A stretch of 54,919 nucleotides of DNA, counting the filler, from Sphacelaria rigidula (Eukaryota), in assembly GCA_964200075.2 (NCBI GenBank). It is 4 parts of 4 records of this genome, joined end to end, with 100 filler letters (N's around TTAATTAATTAA, not from the genome) between each part and the next. Parts side by side here need not be neighbours in the genome. Positions count along the whole stretch, not along the records: positions 13,760 to 27,415 come from CAXNAA020002741.1; 3 more parts are not named here. One strand, written 5' to 3'. The notes below the pieces were generated by a model. That model was not told the origin of the DNA and made no database searches. It worked only from the letters and a program-made list of their open reading frames with translations. Shown in pieces: positions 13,247-54,919 of this stretch (its first letter is position 1; each line of letters opens with the position of its first letter). Made by a program: the position numbers and the translations under genes.

Positions 13247-13310
13247 ATGCTCCGTCTCGAAAGGGATGCGTGGTCAATGGTCAGACGACGAAGGCAAGCA
13301 ACACATGAGA
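13247..13310 (+). mobile_element. 5'-truncated 3' end of the poly(C)-tailed LINE family
   Basis: atgctccgtctcgaaagggatgcgtggtcaatggtcagacgacgaaggcaagcaacacatgagaac matches the reverse complement of 13841-13905. It is preceded by C-runs at about 13215-13237 but has no C tail of its own. Confidence 0.7.
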
Positions 13311-13659
13311 ACACTAACCTGTCCGGCGAGAACCCGGTGTGCTTCGTCCCGGCTTTGTAGGGGCGGACTCCCGATGGGGTTGGCATCGGTTGGCGATGGT
13401 GCTGTAAAACACGCCACTCACTGCGTAAGTTAGGCAACCAGGTCACCGATTTTTTCGCGCGCTATTTTTTTGCTTTGCGGTAAGCATGATGGTGGTCGAG
13501 CTAGATCATGTTGTGCGGCGTGGGAGCACCTCAACTCCGCACAATGGAGATGATCGTACTGCGTGGTGTTGAAATGGTGAGACACCCAGGAGGCAGTGTA
13601 TAAGCCGTGACCGTCTCTGGAAGTGGCGATACCAGAACATAAAGCAACTCATTGTAGGC

Positions 13660-13759: not shown

Positions 13760-13827
13760 ATCTTGCATTTGGATGACAGCCTACAATGAGTCGCTTTATT
13801 TTCTGGTATCGCCACTTCCTGAGGGAA

Positions 13828-14085
13828 GGGGGGGGGGGGGTTCTCACTTGTCGCTTGCTTCAGTCGTTTGACTATTGACCACGCATCCCTTTTGAGACGG
13901 AGCACCGTTCCTACTCCTAATAGACACACCTCCAACATTTGGGTGCTCATTGCGTTTCTTCCACACGCTACACAAAAACCTTTTACATATCGTATCCCCG
14001 TCCTGTTTCGCCGTCTGTGGCCACCATCTATCTCCTAGTATAACCATAGTTTTCTCGCTACTGTCTAATGTCTCAAAGCATGTAC
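13828..14085 (-). mobile_element. LINE (non-LTR retrotransposon) 3' end: C-terminus of ORF2 followed by a C13 tail
   Basis: Open frame CFETLDSSEKTMVILGDRWWPQTAKQDGDTICKRFLCSVWKKRNEHPN...SQTTEASDK*, with the LxxxWxxR motif typical of LINE ORF2 ends. The TGA at 13846-13844 is followed by gaa and 13 C. Confidence 0.7.
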
Positions 14086-14241
14086 CGGGGGGGGGAAGCA
14101 GGTCAATCCCTCGAGACGACCAACTCGTCCTGTGGAAGCACGCCACTCCCTTCATGTGCCTAACCCCTCTACATATAATCTGGCTCATACCCCGCAGTCC
14201 GTGCCCCCGCCATGACACGCTTGTACCGCCCGTGTATGCAG

Positions 14242-25560: not shown

Positions 25561-27415
25561 TGTGACATTGTCACTGAAGGTTGAACATAAGATGCGCGGG
25601 ATGATCGAATGCATGTTGCTCGAAAGCGTATCCCCCACCACCTCTTTCTCTTCCACCGAATAACTCACCTGTGGGCTACTTAAAAGCTGCATGATGAGAG
25701 CACCTTCTCGATTATTTTGTGTAAGTTTTAGTCCAACAACGACTTACAGCCTCTGCCAGACGATCTGGACAAGAGGACTATCCACGAGGGACTCCTCCAG
25801 TGACATTGGCCTCGTGCTCGACATGTCCTTTCTTCTCACTTGTTATTATCACGGAGTGATCCTCAACAGACCACATCAAGAGCCAGACAGCAAGGGGTCA
25901 CATAGATGAGGGTCACCAATCCAGGATCCCCTGTCCCCTGCAACTGCTCCAATCATGCGTGCGATTATACTGAAACCTACGGCTTGGTATCATTTGACTA
26001 CAGCACCCCCAAAGCGAGTTCAAGACAAACGAACGAGCTTGACAACCAACAAAAGACCAAGGCGGAATCGCATGGGCCAGATCACAAAGAAATACCATAC
26101 TCCGACGCTAATTTACTAGTTAGCGCCCGAGTCAACCGCATTTTACGCAGTTCCTTCAAAAAAATTCAGGCGCAGAAGAACGAATCTTGCGAAGAGACTC
26201 CCCTGTACGTTCTTCAGCACCGAACCCTTCCCAATCGACCAAAACAATGAATGACATCACCATTGTCGTCCTCAGCGACGTGCACCAAAGCATTCATCCG
26301 ACATCCACCTTGAGCATACGAATGCTGAAATACATGTTCTGGTTCCGCAGTGATGTGCAGCTGCGAGTCAGCATAGAAACGTAAACGAGCGACATGGGCC
26401 GTGTGCACGGCGCCAGAAACAATGTTCTGTACCAAATACACGTGAGCGTGATCGGCTCCGACCACTCGCCACGGACCTGTCCACGTGGACATCAAGTTTG
26501 GCGTCACAACTTTGCCTCCGAACACGGGCATACAACACGAAATCGCCAACTGCAAACTTGGGCAACACAGCCTGACCCTGAGCAAGCTTGCGTTTGGTTT
26601 CGCGAGACACCGCGGCAGCAGCTCGCACTTCGTTACAAAGCCGCACTTGCTCGTCAACCACGCCTCGAACCTTGTCACGCAACAAATCAGCATCCATGAC
26701 ATCGACGTTCTACTCGCCGCTAGTGATAGAAGCCAGCGCGGAAAACGCTGTACGCGGCGTACGCCCAAACATCACACAATACGGAGTGTTACGGTAGCGT
26801 TCACGAAAAGAAGTATTCAACACCCACTGAGCGGCTGGCAAAACATCAACCCATGCAGATACCGGCCGTCACTGTCCCGACGAAATAGACCGCAACGCAC
26901 GAATAACCTCTTTCACCATACGTTCACAAGCACCATTCGACCAAGGGGTATACGCCACAGCAAATTAGTGTTTCACCTTGAGCGCATCACTCAGCTGCGC
27001 GACCACTCAATTCTTGAAGTGCGTGGCGGTATCACTAACCCAAACACGCGGCACCCCCAAAGTTTTGCACCAATGGAGAAGGTGCTTAGCCGTAACCTCG
27101 GCGGTGCAAGCCTCGGTCGGCTCCAAGCGAACGAAATTGGACAAATCATCCATGATAATCAAAACCTAACGAAAAACGTCCTCCTCAGGCAAACCATTAG
27201 CACCTTAAGGTCCGCTACTTCCTGTGTACAGGAAATCAAAGTGAACAACTTCACCTGGCGCAGTGCCACGCACAGTATCGCCATACGGACGAAACCTCAC
27301 CAGCACGAGTGTCTACACAATGCAAACACTGGCGAACAAACTCGCGAACGTGGGAATCCATGTGAGGCCACACACAATGTTCTTTCAAACGAAGCAAAGT
27401 CGGCGACACACCACG
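25561..27415 (-). mobile_element. Ty3/Gypsy LTR retrotransposon 3' part: degenerate integrase, chromodomain-like tail and putative 3' LTR (26002-25561); cut by contig end
   Basis: Integrase C-terminal motifs STWTGPWRVVG and ARLRFYADSQL are shared with the 47704-52608 element. The same gctttgggggtgc|TGT junction precedes the LTR at 26002. Candidate LTR end tgtcaca at 25561. Confidence 0.8.
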
Positions 27416-27515: not shown

Positions 27516-28320
27516 GAGCGTTTTATCTTTCCTTTGCAGTCCCTCGTCCACGTTCATTGCGCCTCTGGCTTTGGTACTCTATCGTTCAGCGTCTTCATCC
27601 CGTTATGCTCGAGGAACTTGAGCATTTCTACCCCATTCGTGTTCTTCTCTTCCCCGTACTGCCCAATGATATCATCCGGTTGACCCGCTCTCCCTACCCT
27701 TGAATTATGATCTCCCGCTAAGATTACTTCTCCTTGCCTTTTGTACTTACGTATATCTGCTGCTATCTCTCCAAACCTACGCTGAATACCATCCACCGTA
27801 CTCTTCGATTCTCGGGGCATATATAGATGTTCCCTACGAAGAAGTCCTTCGTCCCCCGCTCTTCTGGTACCTTATCCATATGCTCTCGTCAAATTTCGTG
27901 TCATCGATCACTTCTATAATATCACACAGGTATTCCTTGACTAAAAACCCCACTCCCCCCGCTCCCCCGCTCCCCTGCTCTTGTCCTTCTGTCCCATTCG
28001 CTTTTTCCCTATCCATGCGTAGTCTTCAACTTTGCATCCTATTTCTACCCCCTCTTTCTCCAATGGTCACACGACTAAGGCAAGCAACAAATGAGTACGC
28101 CCCCCCCCTCTTTCTCCCATGACTCTTGGATTCCTACGATATCTAGGTCGTGTTTACTCACCTGTTGCGCTATCTCTCCTCGTTGGCGCTTGTCTGTGGC
28201 GAATCCACACACGCTCCACGATCCTACTCTCAGCTTCCTTTCCGAATCATCATCTGCTCTCTTGTTGTTTCCCATCCTCTTCCTGTGTCTTCTACATTCC
28301 CGTGCTTGATTGTTTTAACT
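27516..28320 (-). mobile_element. LINE ORF2 apurinic-like (EEP) endonuclease domain, disrupted; cut by contig end
   Basis: LRVGSWSVCGF...DLDIVGIQESW, GGVGFLVKEYL, ESIWIR, VILAGDHNSRVG and NTNGVEMLKFL...LNDR are canonical APE-type LINE endonuclease motifs. Frameshifts and a small insertion are present. Confidence 0.88.
28062..28103 (+). mobile_element. About 40-bp extreme 3' fragment of the poly(C)-tailed LINE inserted in the endonuclease ORF, with a 14-bp TSD
   Basis: aatggtcacacgactaaggcaagcaacaaatgagtacgcccc is flanked by exact direct repeats ccccctctttctcc (28048-28061 and 28104-28117). Removing the insert and one repeat restores QESWEKEGVEIGCKVEDYAWIGKKR. Confidence 0.8.
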
Positions 28321-33860: not shown

Positions 33861-34310
33861 TCTTGACCAAGAATCTTCGGCGTCAACCACGTCGTCATCA
33901 GACAAAATAAGGGGGGGGGGGGGGGGGCATCGGTTTTAACGGGGCCGGCAATTGGAAGTACTGAATTTCCACGCCATCAATCCGCGCCCGACNNNNNNNN
34001 NNACACACCTGTGTCGCCCAACACGGAAAGAGAAGAAGAAAAGGGGGGGGGGGGGGGGGGGAGCATCTGTGTTAACGGTGACGGCAATTGGAAGTACTGT
34101 ACTTCCACTGCATCAATCCGCGCTCGACTGTGAAAATGACGGTAATCACTACCCGTTGTGCAGTTCGTTTTTCGAAATGGATTTCAAATGTTTTCAGATT
34201 TGTTGCATGATCGCTGTCTTGATCCGGTTTTCGATAATCCTGTGTGACTTTCTAGCAGTATCGGCATTGCAAAGAGAGTACAAGTACGAGCTGGGCCGGC
34301 CGTGAAACGT

Positions 34311-37857: not shown

Positions 37858-38529
37858 GAGCTTTCGAGTTTGGTCTCGAACCGTGCAGACCGATCCGAGT
37901 AACAGTCCAGTATGATCGAATCGAACTTCGAGAAAAGTAGGGTACGACTTCTTGAGAAGACGAGCACAAGAAAACTCACGAGCACATCTCGAGTCCTACT
38001 CTTTCACTCTTCACTCTTTCAATTTCTCAACATAGACTGCAACAGTCCTTTGTTCTCTGCAAGTTTTTGTTGGCCATAAGCGACGATGTAACAACAACAT
38101 ATTTTTGTACAGTTGAGCGAGAGCTATATAGCTGGACAGCTAGCTCGGTAGCTCGACATCGAACACCGCCAGCCTACTGTAGCCATTTGTGGGTGTACAA
38201 GAAGATATCCATTACATGCTGCTACAATATAAACTCTTCGTTCAGTTCGTTGCGTACGTATGTGATTGTGGCGACTGACTTCATCTCATCCCAAAATATC
38301 TTTCAACCATCACTGGACGCTCCTCGTTGCATCCATCTTCATGAGGATGAACAGCCAATTGGAGTGATGCGGCAAATGATCCCGACGGTGAGCGGGCTAA
38401 GGGCTATTCTACGCGCGACAACCTCTCCCAAGATCGGTCTCTGCAGCGAACGGCATGCTCCCAAGAGATACAGTCTCAACGAACTTACGCGCGACGTAGC
38501 CAGAAACTTGTCCGCAAAGTTGTTACGTC

Positions 38530-38853
38530 TGGCCTAGCAACGAGAACACCAAGCACCGCAAGCACGGACACGCGGCCTTGCTCATCTCCGCCTCGCACGA
38601 ACGCTTGATGGAGATAATGTCTGCGGGTGTCGCACCTTCCGATAGGCCGAGGGGTTCGAAGATCTTGCCGTCACCGAACGGAACTCCAGGCAAAGTCGCA
38701 ACGTGGTCGGATCTCGCGCTCATGCTCAGGCCAGAGGACGAGGCGCTTGCAGGGCGGGCGGCCCGCAGGGTAGTCATAGGCGCGACGAAGGCGGCGGTGG
38801 GGGCCACCAGGACGGCGGCAGAGGCAAACAAACATCCGGGTAGAGGTCTTCAT
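38530..38853 (-). pseudogene. LHCX: LHCX/LI818-type light-harvesting protein pseudogene (exon 1 paralog)
   Basis: Aligns along its length with 40261-40572. It has a +1 frameshift after MKTSTRMF, a 9-nt insertion (DIISIKR), a further indel destroying EIKHGR, and loss of the GT donor. No downstream LHC exon was found. Confidence 0.82.
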
Positions 38854-40260
38854 ACTACTGTTGCTGGTATAAGTTGTGGTGGTGAAGACTTTGAAGAATT
38901 GAGAGGAAGAACGGTCTGAGAGTGACTGCGTTATGAGCGGGGGGGGGGGGGGGGGGCCACCCGACCCTGCGTGTGGCGAGACCACGCGTGCTGCGTGGTC
39001 AGAACTCAGTGCGTTGAAAAATCGGCAACAAAAGTTATGACAAGAGACAAAAGCGCGCTACTGCCATACCCTTTGACCAGCAACGACCGCTCACGCGTGA
39101 GCGGGAGCTGTGACACCCCCACTGTGTGGCAAAATTTGAATATTGAGAACGCCTCCAAACATTTATGCCGAAATGGCATGTTCCTCGCTGTCTTCAATGC
39201 AGGTTGCTGGGCTCACTTTGTTTGTGATATAAAAAGTTCGGACTAGCAGTTAGGGGTAAGACGTATTGCAGTTTAAGAGTGTAGAACTTACAAAAAGGGC
39301 AGGATGAAGGCGGAACGGCATACCAAAAATGCACAAGGCAAAATGCACGCCTGCGGAAATATCGACGACTTTATCATCATGATGATGAGTTCAGCCGAGG
39401 TTCAGTGCAATTGATATGATCGTCTTGTGTGATACCCTCCGGTTCAGCGCACGGTGCTGATTCCCAAACCTCACGGTTGACTGTACTTCGCCTTTATGTT
39501 TGAGAGTCAAACCTTCATGATGCCGCCCTATCCTGGACTCGAACTCGTCTGAAAACAGCGGGCAAGGGTGGTTGACAAGATGCACTAGGCAAGCTGTGCT
39601 CTAGTAGAGCTCAATTCAACGTCCCCAGCGCGCTGGGCGAGTACTCGGGAGTAGCTGTGTAAGAGAGACGCCGCATCAACCATCTCATTTTTTGGATAAA
39701 GGTGAAGGTTTAGGTAAGCTGAACTCTGTCGGAGGAACATATTTTCAGTGGGAGTTTGTTCCAGTTCGGGACCATGATGTTCATGGATGACACATGCTGG
39801 AAACGACGCTAACCCTAACCCCGACACCAACCCGAGGCATACCGAGAACCCGGGCAAGGGGTGTGAAACAAAGGCCACAAGCAAAGAGTATTGTGGCAGA
39901 CCTCAAATGACGCCGATTTGGACAAAACGAGATCTGCTTCAGACGGAAAGTACGTAGGAATGGCACGCCCACCAAAAGATCTGAATATCTCTATTTAGTG
40001 TTGTGCATTCAAATGAAGTGAAATATCAACCATGAATATGATGCCCCGACATGGGACAATTTCTACTGACAGTCACCGCCTGAGGGGTGATTTTAATTTT
40101 GCTCCACACCGTACGGTAGTTGTAGAAGAAAATCTTCGCACCCACTCACCCTCTCCCCACCAGAGCACCTTCCTTACAAGTGAATCTATCCCAGCTAATC
40201 CCACGCTTTATAGCCCCGAGTAAGGCGAGTAAGGAACCGTATTGACCTATTTGAATCACC

Positions 40261-40572
40261 ATGAAGACCTCTACCCAGATGTTCTTTGCCTCTGCCGCCG
40301 TCCTGGTGGCCTCCTCCACAGCGTTCGTTGCGCCTGCGACTGCCCTGCGCGCCACCCGCCCTACAATCGCCTCGTCGTCAAGCCTGAGCATGAGCGCGGG
40401 ATCCGACTACGTTGCGACTTTGCCTGGAGCTCCGTTCGGTGACGGCAAGGTCTTCGACCCCCTCGGTCTGTCTCAAGGTGCAGCTCCCGGAGACATCAAG
40501 CGTTGGCGCGAGGCGGAAATCAAGCATGGCCGCGTGTCCATGCTCGCGGCGGTTGGTGTTCTCGTTGCCGAG
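40261..40572 (+). CDS. LHCX: Fucoxanthin-chlorophyll a/c light-harvesting protein, LHCX/LI818-like; exon 1 only (rest beyond contig end)
   Basis: Signal peptide with ASAFAP-type cleavage site (SSTA-FVAP), Ser/Thr/Arg-rich transit peptide, FDPLGL carotenoid motif and helix 1 WREAEIKHGRVSMLA. Donor GAG|GTGATG at 40572. The LHC family is certain; the LHCX subfamily is a recall-based call. Confidence 0.88.
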
Positions 40573-41082
40573 GTGATGGCCGCTGTGTGTTGTATCCAGT
40601 TCACAATTATTCTCTGTGAGAGGCGCAGTGGCGGTACGAACAGCGCCGTCCGGCAATAAGTATCCATGTACCGTGCACTGATGATCAATTGCGAGCCCAT
40701 TCGCTGTCGCATTGCACCCAGTAGGCGCCTTGAATGGTTTCAGCAGAGTCAAGGTATCTCGCAGTTGAGGTTTAAGAGTGTACCGGGAACATCGAGTTCG
40801 AGACACCTCAAGTGACAATAGTTTCAATGTATATGTTGATATCAACTGCCGCGTGAGAATAGCGGGCGCGATTTATCATAGCGTTGTGAAGGATGAGACG
40901 TTTGTACCCGCTCTAAAGTGTTATGCTGCTGTACTTGGCAAGGTCGGGAAAGTGGGATATAGACTCCTCCTCTCGGTGCGGTGATTGATCGGTAGTATCC
41001 AGTTATGATGGTAGTATTCCCTGTTTGGGGGGCAGAAACCGTGTCAAAATGTCCCAGAAGTGAACAATATCCCCCCCCCACC

Positions 41083-46700: not shown

Positions 46701-47703
46701 ACCACTAACCGGATTACACCCTGCCAACGCGGCATGATCCCTCGAGCAGCTGGCACGATCCCGGGGGGGACCTTGACAACTAGCGCGTCGCCTCGAAATC
46801 CTCCCTCTTTCACCACGCGCGCGATGTTCACTACCATCAGTGCCGGGGAGTGGTGTCTGGCGGTCGGGATGCCTCATCACCTGGCTGGCAGCCCCGTCCG
46901 TTGGCGCCGGCGCTACGTGCTCTTGTTCCGAATCCGCCAGTGATGAGCTGCCGACACGTTACATCCGGCCCGGGTCGACATTTAAAATTGTTACGTTATG
47001 TGTTCGGACCGTCGTTGCATCTCTCCAACCCCTGGTTTTCTACAGATGCGCCATCAGCGGACGCGATGGATGCCTCCGAGGCACTGGAACAGTACAGTCG
47101 CCGCATCGTTTCCGTACGAAACGGGGCTCGGCCACCTTGGCGCTGAGCCCCATTCGCCTGCGTAACCCCCGGCGATGTCCCATTTTCCACCGAAGCTGTT
47201 TGTTCGGAGTGCGTATGTGGAGATCTGCTTTCAATTTGTCGGATGGGATGTCGGCGGGAGTGGTGCAGGCACTTCACTACCTGTCCGGACGAGACGGGAT
47301 AACGATAGACAGGCCCAACGTGTCAACCGCGTGGTCTTTTTGATTTTGCGGTTGTAAGAGTCGGAGGTTCGTGTGACAGAGTTTCATCCCCACAGGTAGG
47401 CATCCGCATTTTTCATGCTAAAAAATCACAATCATCAGCAGGAACAAGGGGAAAGCAGTCAGGTGCGCGGGATCTGCAACACTTCTATTTCGCGCGGCAT
47501 TAGTGCATCAGGGGTGTTGTGGTACTCTTACCTCGAGATCGATTGTGGTGCCGAATCTCACGCTCGGCCTGCCGCGGCCGGCGTCGCAGGGTTGCTCCAG
47601 ATGTTGCGCCTCAACTGTGACTCTTCGGGATCTTCCACATCTGCGGTCAGCAAGTTTACCGGGGAGTGGGTGTGTGTAGCATTGTACGTCAATTACTTTG
47701 ATC

Positions 47704-47961
47704 GGTGACGAAAATAAGCCGTACGTTGAGTTGGTAGTGATAATATGGATAATGACCAGGGGCACGGAGATTCTGGAGGGTTATGGATAATGACCGGGGA
47801 CACGCAGATGGTAACTGCAGGTCCAGAAAACTGATGCCCTGGAAGGGCACTCCTGAGTAATGAGAATATTGTAAAGGCTGACAACTGAAACTGAGGCCAG
47901 TAAGACTGAGCAGTCCCTCAACAGCAGTGATCCGACAGTGCTTCCACTGGCTGGCGTCACA
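47704..47961 (+). repeat. 5' LTR
   Basis: Ungapped match to 52351-52608 with about 22 mismatches in 258 bp by manual count (about 91%). Ends in tcaca. Confidence 0.92.
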
Positions 47962-50900
47962 ATATCGATACTAGTGCTAGTGTTAGTGTTAGTACTAGAA
48001 ACCTGCTGGAAAGGATTTCGGTAAGAGCCTGGTAACTGTGGAAACCTGATACACCACGGACGCGTGGAGAGAGTTCCAGCTGAGGCAGCTGCAGAACGGC
48101 GACTGGCTTGTGATTGATCCAGACTGGAGACTTGCTGAAGCTGCGTGCAGCGGGAGTTTGGAGGCTCTTACGACTGTGTGGTGCGGCGACCAGGCGAGGA
48201 AGTTTGCAATTCGTGAAGGTCCGCTGGCCTGCAGAGGTTCGCAGGTAGCCGGTTACAGCAACAGCTATGGCTACCGGCTCACGAGGTACGTCCACCGCGA
48301 CACCTGTGGTCATGCAGGAAGAATTGCGACCTCCCCAATACGGGAACAGATACTCAGAGAGTGCTTCTCGCACTTTTTACACGAGGTATTTGGAATACAA
48401 GAAGCGTGTTGAGCACGCTAATGCAGGGGGTACCGTGTGGCATCAGGTGGTGACAATGGCTCAACACGTGCCGACTCATGTACAGAGAGTGTTCGCTCGT
48501 TTGGAACATAATGAGAGCACCATCACCTCGCCACAATTGATTGCGGCGATCAAAAAGCATGCTGGGCATGCGGCGGGCGCCGAGGTATATCTGACCCAAG
48601 CGTCCGCGGCCGTGGCGAAAGCTGTCGCCATGGATCTGTCGCCATGAATTCTCGGGGGAAAACGATGTTGGAGCGTGTGGAGCCCATCGTGACTAATTTG
48701 TAGAAGTACTTCACGGAAAATCTGAACGTAGAACTCGTATATCGTTCCCCCGATGGTGAGTTCATTCCCGGCCCGGCAGCTGTAATCACTAAGGCTTTGG
48801 TGGAGGGGTTGGCACCGGAAAATTTCAAGCAAGCCGTCCTTGTCAAGCTGCAGCACCAAACAGACTGGAAAGACGACCCGTACCTGGTGATGAGTATCAT
48901 CGTGGCCGAGGCCAAGGAGTGGCGGAAAATAGAGGTGTTCAGCCAGTCGTCCACCTCTTCGCCGAAATCTTTGCGCAACCATGGCTCGAAAGCGGCTGGT
49001 CGCGCCGCGAGTATTACTTGCCACCGCTGTGGCCAGGTCGGCCATTACGTGCGTGATTGCCCAACGTCTTCCGGTGGAGAGTCTGGGCAATCTAGTGCCG
49101 CGCACCATCAGCATCGTCAGCACAAGAGCAAAATACGACGTAATCGGGGTGGCGGCGGCGGATCCTCCGACGATGGAGGGTCGCAGGCGAGCCCTCAGCA
49201 GCAGCAGCCGCAGCAACAGAACCAGAAGAACCAGAACCAGCAGCAGCAGGGGCAGTGACGTCAGCATGGAACTGGCTCTGGGTCCGGCGCCGCCGTAGGT
49301 GCTGGTGCTCCGCAACGGGCGGTGCAGGTGGGCTCGACTTCTACAGAGTCGAACACTGCGCCGGCGCCGGTGGTAGCGCCGGCGGCGACACCGGTAGCAG
49401 GGCCAGGCGCAACGCCTGTTGACGCGCTCGTCGGAGGATCGCCAAAGTCTTGGTTTGCTGGCTGGAGGGCGTACCCGCCGGCGGTGCCGTTTGAACATGC
49501 CGGGGCGTCTTCGCCTGCACAGCGTGCGCAGCCGTGGCGTCGAGTAGGATTGGCGGCGCATAGGTCAGCGGAAGAAGTTTCCGTGGAGCTTGCCGACAGA
49601 TACATTCCGGTGGAATTATATCCTCCGAATTAACGGCAGCGTGGATCCATTGTGGTTCGATCTGTGTCGGGTTCTGGCGCCCATTTCACTAGTCTGCCGG
49701 TGCAGATGGTTGAGATGCTGGAGCGTCAACTCCCGGGTGTGCCGCTAAGTACCCCGTTTTCGCTCGGGGCGCGGCAGGTAGTCACTGCGTCGGGTCAGCA
49801 TGTTTCAGTCACGGAGCGTACTGTTCCGTTGCACCTAGCCTTCAAGACTGCTTGGGGGCTGACTCCGTTGCCTCCGATCTCGTTTGTGATTATATCAGGG
49901 TCGGATGGCGTTGTTCTTCTGGGGCTGCCGATGCTACAGGATCTGGGAGTCGATCCGTATGAGCGGCTGAAGGACTCTATGAAGACGCGGATGTCTCCGC
50001 CTGGTCCGCGGTTGGAGACGTCCGCCTTTTTGGGCAGTCGTCGCGTGAGCTTATTGGTGGACGATTTTTAGGAGGCTGGAGGGTAGGTGACCGAGGAGCG
50101 GGATGCGGCGGTGGAACGCTTAGTAGAGCGCGGCCCGGAGATATTAATGATTCCGGCGGAGGAGGAGTTCGCTCGGAAGGTCGCGCTGGAGGGGAGCGTG
50201 ACGGATGCTGGGGCGAAAAGCCTCAGCGTCACAAAAGCGGAGCGCCTGCGCGGCATATTGCATTGCCGAGTCAACGCGTTTCGTCGCGCGCTGCGGGTAA
50301 CCCCCCTGCGCGCGTGGAGCCCATGCGTGTTCAGCTCAAACCTGGGGAATCCGCGGTGAAGGCGAAGCCGCGGCGGTACGATCCAGTGAAGTCGAGTTCG
50401 TTGGCATTGTGCATTGCGGCTTGTTTGGCGGTTGGGTTGGTGTTACGGAATTTGCAGGCGGGGTGGTCCAGTCCAAATATGGCGTTTTCGGAGAAGGCTG
50501 CATCGTGGACGGAGGGCAGGCTGCAGGCGTAGGCGGCAGTGAAGGATCTGGTGGCTCATGCCGTGATGCTGTTCCACCCTCGTTCTGATTGTCAGGTGTT
50601 TATGTTTCCGGATGCATCTGAGTGCGATTGGGATAGTTTGGTCATGAAGGTGCCTACATTTGAAATTCAAATGGTTGTGCGCTGTGGCTGTGTATGGTCC
50701 GTGTGAACTTGATGACTCGATACCATCCAAATCTGTTGTCCGCCAAGCGCAACGAAAAGACTTTGGGGCTGAATATGCGGATGTGCAATCTTTCGAGTCG
50801 GACGTTGGTACTGCTATCTCGGACAATGAGGGTCTGTTTCGTGTGCATGTGCGTGGCCGAAACGTTTTGTGGATTCCGAGTTCTGACAAGTAGTTGCGGG

Positions 50901-52350
50901 TACGCCTGATGATTTGCGCGCACATGCGCGACGCCGGGAATCGTGGTGTGGCTGCGGCGCTCGTGCGCTTGCAAGACGTTTATGTCTGGCAGGGGACAGA
51001 ATCTCATGTGTGCGAATTTGTCCGCCAGTGTCTTCACTGTGCTGACTCGATGGCCGGCGATGTTGTTCCCCGCCCGCTCGGCGAAACGGTCCATGGGACC
51101 ATGCTGAATGAAGTCGTTCATTTTGATTTCTTGTACTTGGGCGAGAGGGGTCCACTCGCTTCCCAAGGTTTGTCGGAGGATGCTGGGTTTCCATACATTT
51201 TGGTAATCATGTATGATTTGAGCAATTTTCTGGCTCTGGAACCAGTAGCAATGTGCACTGCTGAATCGATCGCTGCATCTTTGCTGAATTGGTGCAAAAC
51301 TTTGGGGATGCCGCGTGTGTGGGTGAGTGATACCGCCACGCATTTAAAAAATGCGATCTCGGCCCGATTGCGAGAGGCTTTGCGCGTTGATCACCAATTT
51401 GCGGTGGCGTATTCTCCGTGGTCTAACGGTACGTGCCAACGCATGGTCAAGGGAGTAGTTCGTGATCCTTTCTCTATTCTTCTCGAGCAGCGCAGAGCGG
51501 TTTCCGAGTGGGTGGACATATTGCCGGCGGTGCGATGGGCGCTTTATACAGCGTAACATCGTCGTTACAACAGTACGCCATACCACGTGATGTTTGGTCG
51601 TGCCCCTCGGACGTCTTTCTCGGTGCTGGCGTCTTCATCGGCGGGGGAATGGAAGTGTGATGTTTTGGGCGATGTTCAAATTAAGAGTGCACTGCAAGGA
51701 GTCTTGGACTTGCACGAACGTTTCCACGTTCAAGTGCAGGAACTTGTTGCCGCTGAACGTGCGCGTAGACGTGAGGGGTCCTCGTCGGGGCTGAAATTGC
51801 CGAAGTTTGAGGTAGGTGACCATGGCTTGTATGCACGCGTGTGTCGTCCGGGTGTTACGCTCGAGTTGATGGCGACTTGGACTGGTCCATGGAGAGTGGT
51901 TGGTGCTCACCATCCGCACGTGTTTGAGACTCAGAACATTGTTTCGGGTCGCGTTCAGACCGCCCATGTAGCTCCTTTGCGTTTTTATGCAGACTCGCAG
52001 CTTAATGTTTTGGCCGACGTAAAGGACGTGTTCCAGCATGCTTTCAATCGGGGGCAATTTCAGATGTCTGGTATTGTCCGAGTGGCAGAAGCAGATGATC
52101 GTTCGTTGATCATGTTGGTCGACTGGGTTGGTTTCGAAGTTGAGGAGCGTACGTGGGAGCCTTTCAAGGGTATTTTTGAGGCCGCTCCGGAATTTCTTAC
52201 GAAGGATTTGCGTGAATTGCGCGTGACTCGTGCCGTTGCTGCTCGAATTACGAGTGAGTTTGCTATTCAATCGTGACTTACTTATCGTTTTGACGTCTTC
52301 TATGTTTCAAGCTTGTTGATTGATTATCATTCAACGCGCTTTGGGGGTGC

Positions 52351-52608
52351 TGTGACGAAAATAAGCCGTACGTTGAGTTGGTAGTGATGATATGGATGAT
52401 GACCAGGGGAACGGAGATTCTGGAGGGTTATGGATAATGACCGGGGACACGGAGGTGGTATCTGTAGGTCTAGGAAGCTGATGCCCTGGAAAGGCACTCC
52501 TGAATAATGAGATTGTTGTAAAGGTTGACAACTGATACTGAGGCCAGTAAGACTGGGGAGTCCCTCAACAGCAGTGATTCAACAGTGCTTCCACTGGCTG
52601 GTGTCACA
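52351..52608 (+). repeat. 3' LTR
   Basis: TGTGAC...GTCACA termini, preceded by the gggggtgc PPT-like tract. Confidence 0.92.
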
Positions 52609-54851: not shown

Positions 54852-54919
54852 GGGGGGGGGGGGGGGTAGTCATTTGTTCCTTGCCTTAGTCGTTTGACTA
54901 CTGACCTTTTGGGACGGGG
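54852..54919 (-). mobile_element. 3' end of the poly(C)-tailed LINE family (C15 tail), cut by contig end
   Basis: Minus strand ...gtcaaacgactaaggcaaggaacaaaTGActa followed by 15 C. Confidence 0.7.

What the first reader, a model, noticed from the sequence alone, without database searches (positions are those of the whole stretch)
13828..14085. LINE family ending in a poly(C) tail with essentially no 3' UTR
Seen: the same 3' terminus occurs once in each of the four independent contigs (13247-13310 +, 13828-14085 -, 28062-28108 +, 54852-54919 -). In three copies the ORF stop (...ASNK/ASDK-TGA) is followed by only 3-5 nt and then a C-run (C13, C9, C15). Copies with a visible 5' end are truncated at different points, as expected for retrotransposition. 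Known: LINE tails are normally poly(A) or A-rich short repeats. Inference: this is a very abundant non-LTR family that uses a C homopolymer tail. I do not recall such a family being described, but cannot check. The 13247 copy lacks the tail.
Basis: partly seen in the sequence, partly recalled or inferred. Interest (0 to 1): 0.72.

Follow-up and report, generated by a model that had tools for sequence, protein, structure and literature searches.

The report
C-tailed LINE of brown algae
These are broken ends of a very abundant seaweed jumping gene that ends in a run of C instead of the usual A and lands in C runs; the habit is already listed for a related seaweed, but most copies here are cut to the same ~66 bases.

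Summary
Confirmed, but largely known. The terminus ends a single-ORF endonuclease-RT LINE of a brown-alga-like genome: 4,462 exact termini, 3,214 with CCCC 6-9 nt after the stop, 1 with AAAA; RT-selected copies end the same way (17 of 21). Dinatale et al. 2025 (PMC12477816, Supplement 3) already list Ectocarpus RTEX-1/-2 as 'single EN-RT ORF; (C)n 3'', C-rich TSD; I could not compare their sequences. The C run is partly target: 60 of 80 5' junctions lie beside a C run (background 6 of 77). It is not only target: the 28062 copy sits in a site whose empty alleles have mostly C5, and it carries C9. Best model: G/C mirror of L1 priming. Not found in print: 51 of 80 copies are 55-67 nt, starting at the 5' strand of a helix that closes the last 66 nt; the same junction appears in four other runs. 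A ~570-nt non-autonomous partner shares the fold but not that hot spot. The scan had no look-alike on other DNA.

The parts
13841..14085 (-). 3' fragment of the LINE ORF (last ~80 codons, stop at 13846-13844) plus 3 nt of 3' UTR
   Evidence: 79% identical over 77 aa to the C-terminus of intact 1360-aa APE-RT protein P0001; 84% DNA identity to L193 and L200
13828..13840 (-). C13 tail
   Evidence: sequence
14087..14095 (-). C9 run at the 5' junction: likely the upstream remnant of the target C run
   Evidence: fits the 60 of 80 pattern (inferred; the downstream half of the TSD is displaced)
13760..13823 (-). internal piece of the non-autonomous partner family, directly behind the tail, cut by the contig end
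   Evidence: 83% to L301, 95% to L303
13215..13236 (+). C13-AG-C7 target run upstream of the short copy
13248..13312 (+). hot-spot-sized copy (61 nt to the stop), tail-less; an 8-nt near-duplication (7 of 8) flanks it
   Evidence: 92% to L200 3711-3775; duplication read by eye
13316..13659 (+). 5' part of a full-length non-autonomous partner element, cut by the contig end
   Evidence: 83% to L301 over 337 nt
27516..28314 (-). older copy of the same LINE (endonuclease-linker region), host of the 28062 insertion
   Evidence: 82-84% to L197 on both sides of the insertion
28048..28061 (+). left target-site duplication: C5 plus 9 nt
28062..28108 (+). 33-nt truncated copy, 5-nt UTR and C9 run (at most 5 C from the target, at least 4 added)
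   Evidence: empty alleles of this site have 5 or fewer C in 24 of 26 own-genome copies
28104..28117 (+). right target-site duplication (overlaps the C run)
54852..54866 (-). C15 tail
54867..54919 (-). decayed terminus, cut by the window end
   Evidence: 88% to L200 over 41 nt

Best explanation
A ~6-kb single-ORF APE-RT non-LTR retrotransposon, the local counterpart of Ectocarpus RTEX-1/-2, that works as a G/C mirror image of L1. Shown: the ORF runs to 5 nt before the end; copies sit in C runs with roughly 10-18-nt duplications that begin with C; tails can hold more C than the target had; new copies land in older tails. Inferred: the endonuclease nicks the G-rich strand, the freed G-ended primer pairs with C residues at the RNA 3' end (most simply transcribed from the donor's own genomic C run and lengthened by slippage), and the RT recognises a folded element in the last 66 nt, inside the coding sequence, which a ~570-nt non-autonomous partner has borrowed. 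Reverse transcription or 5' joining usually ends at the 5' edge of that fold, giving thousands of ~66-nt copies. Copies in this genome are old (about 84% alike); intact ORFs exist in other samples.
For: Domains: RVT_1 and Exo_endo_phos above cut-off on P0001 and L200; own-genome copies match P0001 from residue 1 to 1360 in broken pieces. Target: C4+ within 25 nt of the 5' junction in 60 of 80, G4+ 4 of 80, C4+ 200 nt further out 6 of 77; exact TSDs 22 of 80 against 1.3 in shuffles; 32 of 125 against 2-8 with a looser caller. One C5 site was hit twice independently, in the window and in L090. Added C: C9 against a C5 empty site; tail C count does not follow target C count (rho 0.07, n=32). Nesting in tails 10 of 83 against 0 of 80. 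RNA element: differences between LINE and partner avoid predicted stems, 41 of 42 paired positions kept against 14 of 25 unpaired, p=3e-5. Same end in intact metagenome copy L200; C-rich loose ends on both sides in 4 of 4 runs. Ectocarpus annotation.
Against: No RNA end was seen, so the source of the added C is not shown. Some copies carry 0-2 C (9 of 93 have no first run; L109, L189), and in 10 of 32 TSD calls the tail is shorter than the target run, so an RNA tail is not always copied. C runs mutate after insertion. About 5 of the 32 TSD calls are expected to be false. The 66-nt fold is no more stable than shuffles (z -0.32), the stem test rests on one pair of sequences, and the partner's unit alone folds without the closing helix. 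Nicking and priming were not tested.
Confidence: 0.75

Rival explanations
1. There is no tail: the element ends at the 5-nt UTR, targets C runs, and the 3' run is all target duplication plus later microsatellite growth.
For: Strong C-run targeting; tail-less and 2-C copies exist; tail shorter than or equal to the target run in 14 of 32 calls; partner-family tails look mostly target-sized by eye.
Against: C9 at a C5 site whose upstream duplicate stayed C5; targets of 3-5 C with tails of 7-14 C (L127, L135, L150, L152, L183); growth after insertion should hit both duplicates alike.
Confidence: 0.15
2. The C tail is added to the RNA without a template by a host nucleotidyltransferase acting on the tRNA-like closed fold, and the 66-nt copies come from a discrete RNA cut at the base of the closing helix.
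For: The hot spot (mode 61-62 nt) is the first base of a 6-bp helix with the last bases before G-C(n), pair probability 0.97-0.99 for the excised unit; same junction in 4 of 4 runs.
Against: The partner family has the same helix sequences but 0 of 21 copies longer than 62 nt stop at 63-75; no T-loop motif by eye; Rfam found nothing at E<=1 in six loci; junctions spread over 55-67 nt.
Confidence: 0.1
3. The ~66-nt copies are an independent micro-SINE with its own master genes rather than truncation products.
For: They are the majority (51 of 80; only 914 of 3,380 core matches continue upstream) and carry their own TSDs.
Against: No diagnostic substitution separates 54 short from 67 long copies (best unselected column p=0.002 of about 60 tests, and no difference against the 17 long copies picked the same way); no shared 5' head in 53 flanks apart from nested elements.
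Confidence: 0.12

Closest known systems
RTEX-1_Ec32 and RTEX-2_Ec32 of Ectocarpus sp. 7 (Dinatale et al. 2025, PMC12477816; supplement rows, passages and section 5 part 1 read)
   Same: Single EN-RT ORF, (C)n 3' end, C-rich TSDs, 5.5-5.9 kb; here about 6 kb; nearest named protein relatives are from Ectocarpus
   Different: Another genome, copies decayed; the paper gives no target geometry, empty-site test, RNA fold or truncation hot spot in what I read. Their FASTA files could not be read, so identity of families is inferred
RTEX-N1_Ec32 (same paper)
   Same: ~600-nt non-autonomous element, shares the last 60 bp with the LINE, weak 5' homology to the LINE, C-rich TSD, often tandem; the partner here is ~570 nt with the same three traits
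   Different: Sequences not compared; the partner here has a ~48-nt direct repeat near both ends
Human L1 / Alu target-primed reverse transcription (PMC3812793, passages read)
   Same: Homopolymer RNA tail pairs with a complementary primer at the nick; variable TSDs; tails seed microsatellites
   Different: A tail on T-rich primer there, C tail on G-rich primer here; L1 has ORF1 and a real 3' UTR
Zorro3 of Candida albicans (PMC3956500, passages read)
   Same: LINE flanked by the same homopolymer at both ends and integrating into it
   Different: Poly(A), L1 clade, two ORFs, no TSDs
Stringent-type LINE/SINE pairs such as UnaL2 (PMC3747384, passages read)
   Same: Structured 3' end shared with a non-autonomous partner; non-poly(A) repeat tail with template slippage
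   Different: There the element lies in a 3' UTR; here inside the last 20 codons, and the repeat is a C homopolymer
Chlamys Penelope-like elements (PMC8557442, passages read)
   Same: Targeted insertion at (C)n repeats in algae
   Different: Unrelated class with a GIY-YIG endonuclease

Membership tests
APE-type non-LTR retrotransposon (LINE) | RT of non-LTR type in the same element as the terminus | tested here: met
   RVT_1 E=7e-21 on L064; best PDB hits L1 ORF2p and R2; 17 of 21 RT-picked copies end in the C run
APE-type non-LTR retrotransposon (LINE) | N-terminal apurinic-type endonuclease | tested here: met
   PF03372 above cut-off on P0001 and L200; on own-genome L065 only PF14529 at E=0.028, but 63-68% identity to P0001
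APE-type non-LTR retrotransposon (LINE) | 5' truncation, fixed 3' end, variable-length TSDs | tested here: met
Ectocarpus RTEX-1/-2_Ec32 type | single EN-RT ORF, no ORF1 | tested here: met
   1,253-1,376-aa single ORFs in close relatives; the 820 nt before the ORF have no open stretch over 92 codons in any frame across 7 decayed copies, and further upstream lie ~63-bp tandem repeats; decay weakens this test
Ectocarpus RTEX-1/-2_Ec32 type | (C)n 3' end and C-rich TSD | tested here: met
Ectocarpus RTEX-1/-2_Ec32 type | sequence identity to the published consensus | not testable with these tools
   supplementary FASTA files not readable; indirect: own RT groups with Ectocarpus-named P0004 at SH-aLRT 100
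RTEX clade (Repbase) | RT groups with reference RTEX elements | not testable with these tools
   no named RTEX reference was available; the quick tree of 57 rows has none; the label rests on the paper's best blastp hits
SINE | for the 66-nt copies: own head or promoter and own subfamily substitutions | tested here: not met
   no shared head in 53 flanks and no diagnostic sites
tRNA-like or known ribozyme RNA | match to an Rfam model | tested here: not met
   0 matches at E<=1 in six loci holding 5' and 3' ends

The most novel reading that the evidence does not exclude
The last 66 nt of the LINE's coding sequence are a tRNA-like RNA module that is cut out at the base of its closing helix and C-tailed by a host enzyme; the LINE's RT then copies this mini-RNA more often than its own full RNA, so most insertions are a programmed by-product, and a G-run-cutting endonuclease makes the whole system a C/G mirror of L1 that seeds the C/G runs of brown algal genomes.
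Probability: 0.1. Interest if true: 0.78.

Novelty: new member of a known kind. Interest (0 to 1): 0.4.

Why it matters
The C tail itself is on record, though only in a supplementary table among the sources I could search. What remains open is worth a specialist's look: a LINE that primes with C on G would be a natural test of how tail and endonuclease preference change together, the more so as two distant relatives keep the no-UTR layout with A/T-rich tails. The sharp ~66-nt truncation point marks the RNA element that the RT must recognise, which makes it easy to test. In practice, repeat annotation that drops short hits will miss most copies.

Tried and rejected
Common 3' UTR or poly(A) beyond the run: rejected. 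The 45-nt match between the ends of contigs 1 and 2 first looked like a shared UTR; it is the partner family. Independent micro-SINE: no support. Hot spot explained by the fold alone: the partner lacks it. Rfam: nothing. phmmer of the endonuclease domain against the PDB gave no significant hit. Run search: no RNA holder listed; the four runs laid were contigs and cannot show RNA ends. The careful tree did not finish; only the quick tree is cited. Paper searches with no hit: non-LTR + 'poly C tail', 'poly C' + non-LTR + TPRT, LINE + truncation + hot spot + stem-loop + TPRT, brown algae + LINE + 'poly C' + intron; these phrase searches did not find the Ectocarpus table either, and Repbase and Dfam were not searchable, so absence from print is weakly supported. 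The scan's own notes had no look-alike sequence.

Full report
Setting. The window is four contigs joined by N spacers from a 244-Mb assembly in 27,214 contigs. A chlorophyll-binding protein gene lies in it and the nearest named relatives of the element's RT are Ectocarpus proteins, so the host is most likely a brown alga (inference).

The observation. Each contig holds one terminus; three have a C run 3-5 nt after the stop, the 13248 copy has none. The 18-mer ending in the stop occurs 4,462 times, reversed control 0; 3,214 of these have CCCC at +6..+9, 1 has AAAA. I fetched 95 of the first 100 listed sites (5 at contig starts left out). The usual end is stop, 5 nt, C run; 72 of 93 have at least 7 C in +6..+15, median first run 6, 1 of 90 has A8, and 66 of 86 downstream flanks are unique, the others being other repeats in varying register. 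There is no common UTR.

What it is. Walking upstream gave RT and endonuclease motifs. Copies picked by the RT region end in the C run in 17 of 21 cases. An intact relative, P0001, has 1,360 aa with APE and RT domains and the same last residues; own-genome copies cover it from end to end in broken pieces. Ahead of the ORF lie about 2 kb with ~63-bp tandem repeats and no long open frame in the 820 nt tested: about 6 kb in all. First-look candidates fall from 4,209 at the 3' end to 1,434 at RT and 449 at the endonuclease. Long copies are 84% alike on average (91 pairs, maximum 86%) and the longest open frame in 35 long loci was 432 codons, so the family looks old here. An intact ORF with the same end and C8 exists in metagenome contig L200.

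Known. The Ectocarpus TE paper (PMC12477816) lists RTEX-1a_Ec32 as 'single EN-RT ORF; (C)n 3'', 5,867 bp, C-rich TSD, RTEX-2 with '(C)n termini/TSD', and RTEX-N1, ~605 bp, sharing the last 60 bp; RTE-X has 16,418 copies there. I read passages, section 5 part 1 and these supplement rows; the FASTA files were not readable. The own RT groups with Ectocarpus-named P0004 at SH-aLRT 100 in a quick tree without named RTEX references. So this is very probably the same kind of element in another alga; the clade name is borrowed, not tested.

Tail or target. Of 80 copies with both flanks, 60 have C4 or more within 25 nt of the 5' junction, against 4 with G4 and 6 of 77 at 200 nt further out; exact TSDs were called in 22 of 80 against 1.3 in shuffled pairs, and 32 of 125 against 2-8 with a looser caller. 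The duplications begin with C. The window gives a direct test: the 28062 copy lies inside an older antisense copy of the same LINE, so empty alleles exist. They have C5 in 15 and at most C5 in 24 of 26 own-genome copies; the insertion left C5 upstream and has C9 downstream with a 14-nt duplication, and the same site was hit independently by the partner family in L090. So the element targets C runs, and at least some C are added. Across 32 calls the tail was longer than the target run in 18, equal in 4, shorter in 10, with no correlation; some copies have no C at all. Ten of 83 copies sit in another element's tail, 0 of 80 in a control position. The simplest mechanism is L1-type priming with the letters swapped: nick in the G strand, G primer on C-ended RNA, slippage. 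The L1 model is from PMC3812793 (passages), slippage on repeat tails from PMC3747384 (passages); homopolymer targeting is known for Zorro3 (PMC3956500, passages) and (C)n targeting for Chlamys (PMC8557442, passages). Nick and priming are inferred, and no RNA end was observed.

The 66-nt pile-up. 51 of 80 copies run 55-67 nt to the stop, mode 61-62; of 69 that reach 55 nt, 51 stop by 67. Genome-wide, 914 of 3,380 core matches keep four upstream bases; allowing for decay, about 60% stop there (my estimate). They have their own TSDs, no shared head and no diagnostic substitutions. In four public runs from four studies and four coded organisms, loose ends pile up at the same two places with C-rich flanks on both sides. 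The unit folds into a three-helix junction whose closing helix pairs the first bases of the short copies with the last bases before the tail. Against this: z is -0.32. For it: a non-autonomous family of ~570 nt, 2,710 exact termini, differs from the LINE end at 1 of 42 paired and 11 of 25 unpaired positions (one pair of sequences, and its own unit folds without the closing helix). That family has C tails (38 of 56) but no such hot spot: 0 of 21 copies longer than 62 nt stop at 63-75. The fold alone therefore does not explain the pile-up. I favour drop-off or early 5' joining once the RT leaves the element it holds; cutting of the RNA is the bolder reading.

The other window copies. Behind the 13248 copy begins a full-length partner element, and an 8-nt near-duplication without C flanks the copy, which would explain its missing tail (read by eye). 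Behind the 13828 tail lies a truncated partner piece.

Relatives. Of 27 metagenome ORFs printed with their ends, only L200 has a C tail; L204 and L206, in the same wider branch, also stop right at the end but continue with short A/T-rich repeats. With so few, this only suggests that the missing UTR is older than the C tail.

Verdict. Real, RT-linked, abundant, and already recorded for Ectocarpus. Target geometry, added C and the 66-nt pile-up were not found in four searches, which cover only part of the literature and not Repbase. New member of a known kind; interest 0.4.

Noticed in passing
window 13316-13659 (+), 13760-13823 (-); L301, L303, L278: Non-autonomous ~570-nt partner family, 2,710 exact termini, C-tailed, with a ~48-nt direct repeat near both ends; resembles RTEX-N1_Ec32.
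   Followed up: partly
L197, L196, L062, L301; window 13370-13415: The first ~100 nt of the full LINE and of the partner share a hairpin-like motif; no Rfam match.
   Followed up: partly
L277, L290, L109, L088: A ~300-bp element with terminal inverted repeats and a subterminal C run is a repeated target of both families.
   Followed up: no
L109 (G000:C35:2691-5708): The 5' junction carries about two units that look like a telomere repeat (label recalled) between TSD and element; single case.
   Followed up: no
L121, L166, L168, L174, L289, L299: Another repeat with a C run is hit repeatedly at the same place.
   Followed up: no
L194, L196, L197, L193: The 5' UTR holds 5-12 tandem copies of a ~63-bp unit, variable between copies.
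   Followed up: partly
P0014, P0018, P0022, P0032, P0036, P0052, P0176: Distant relatives of unknown hosts keep a similar motif in their last ~15 residues, the stretch that encodes the RNA element here; their DNA ends were not available.
   Followed up: partly
window 38500-38900 and 40255-40659: Two inverted, 84% alike light-harvesting protein gene fragments.
   Followed up: partly
window 26200-27400 and 47700-52600: Decayed LTR-retrotransposon pieces with integrase domains; 257-nt direct repeats at 47705 and 52352 look like LTRs.
   Followed up: partly
window 33911-34128: Two 82-nt repeats each beginning with G17-19, beside an assembly gap; not matched to either family.
   Followed up: no
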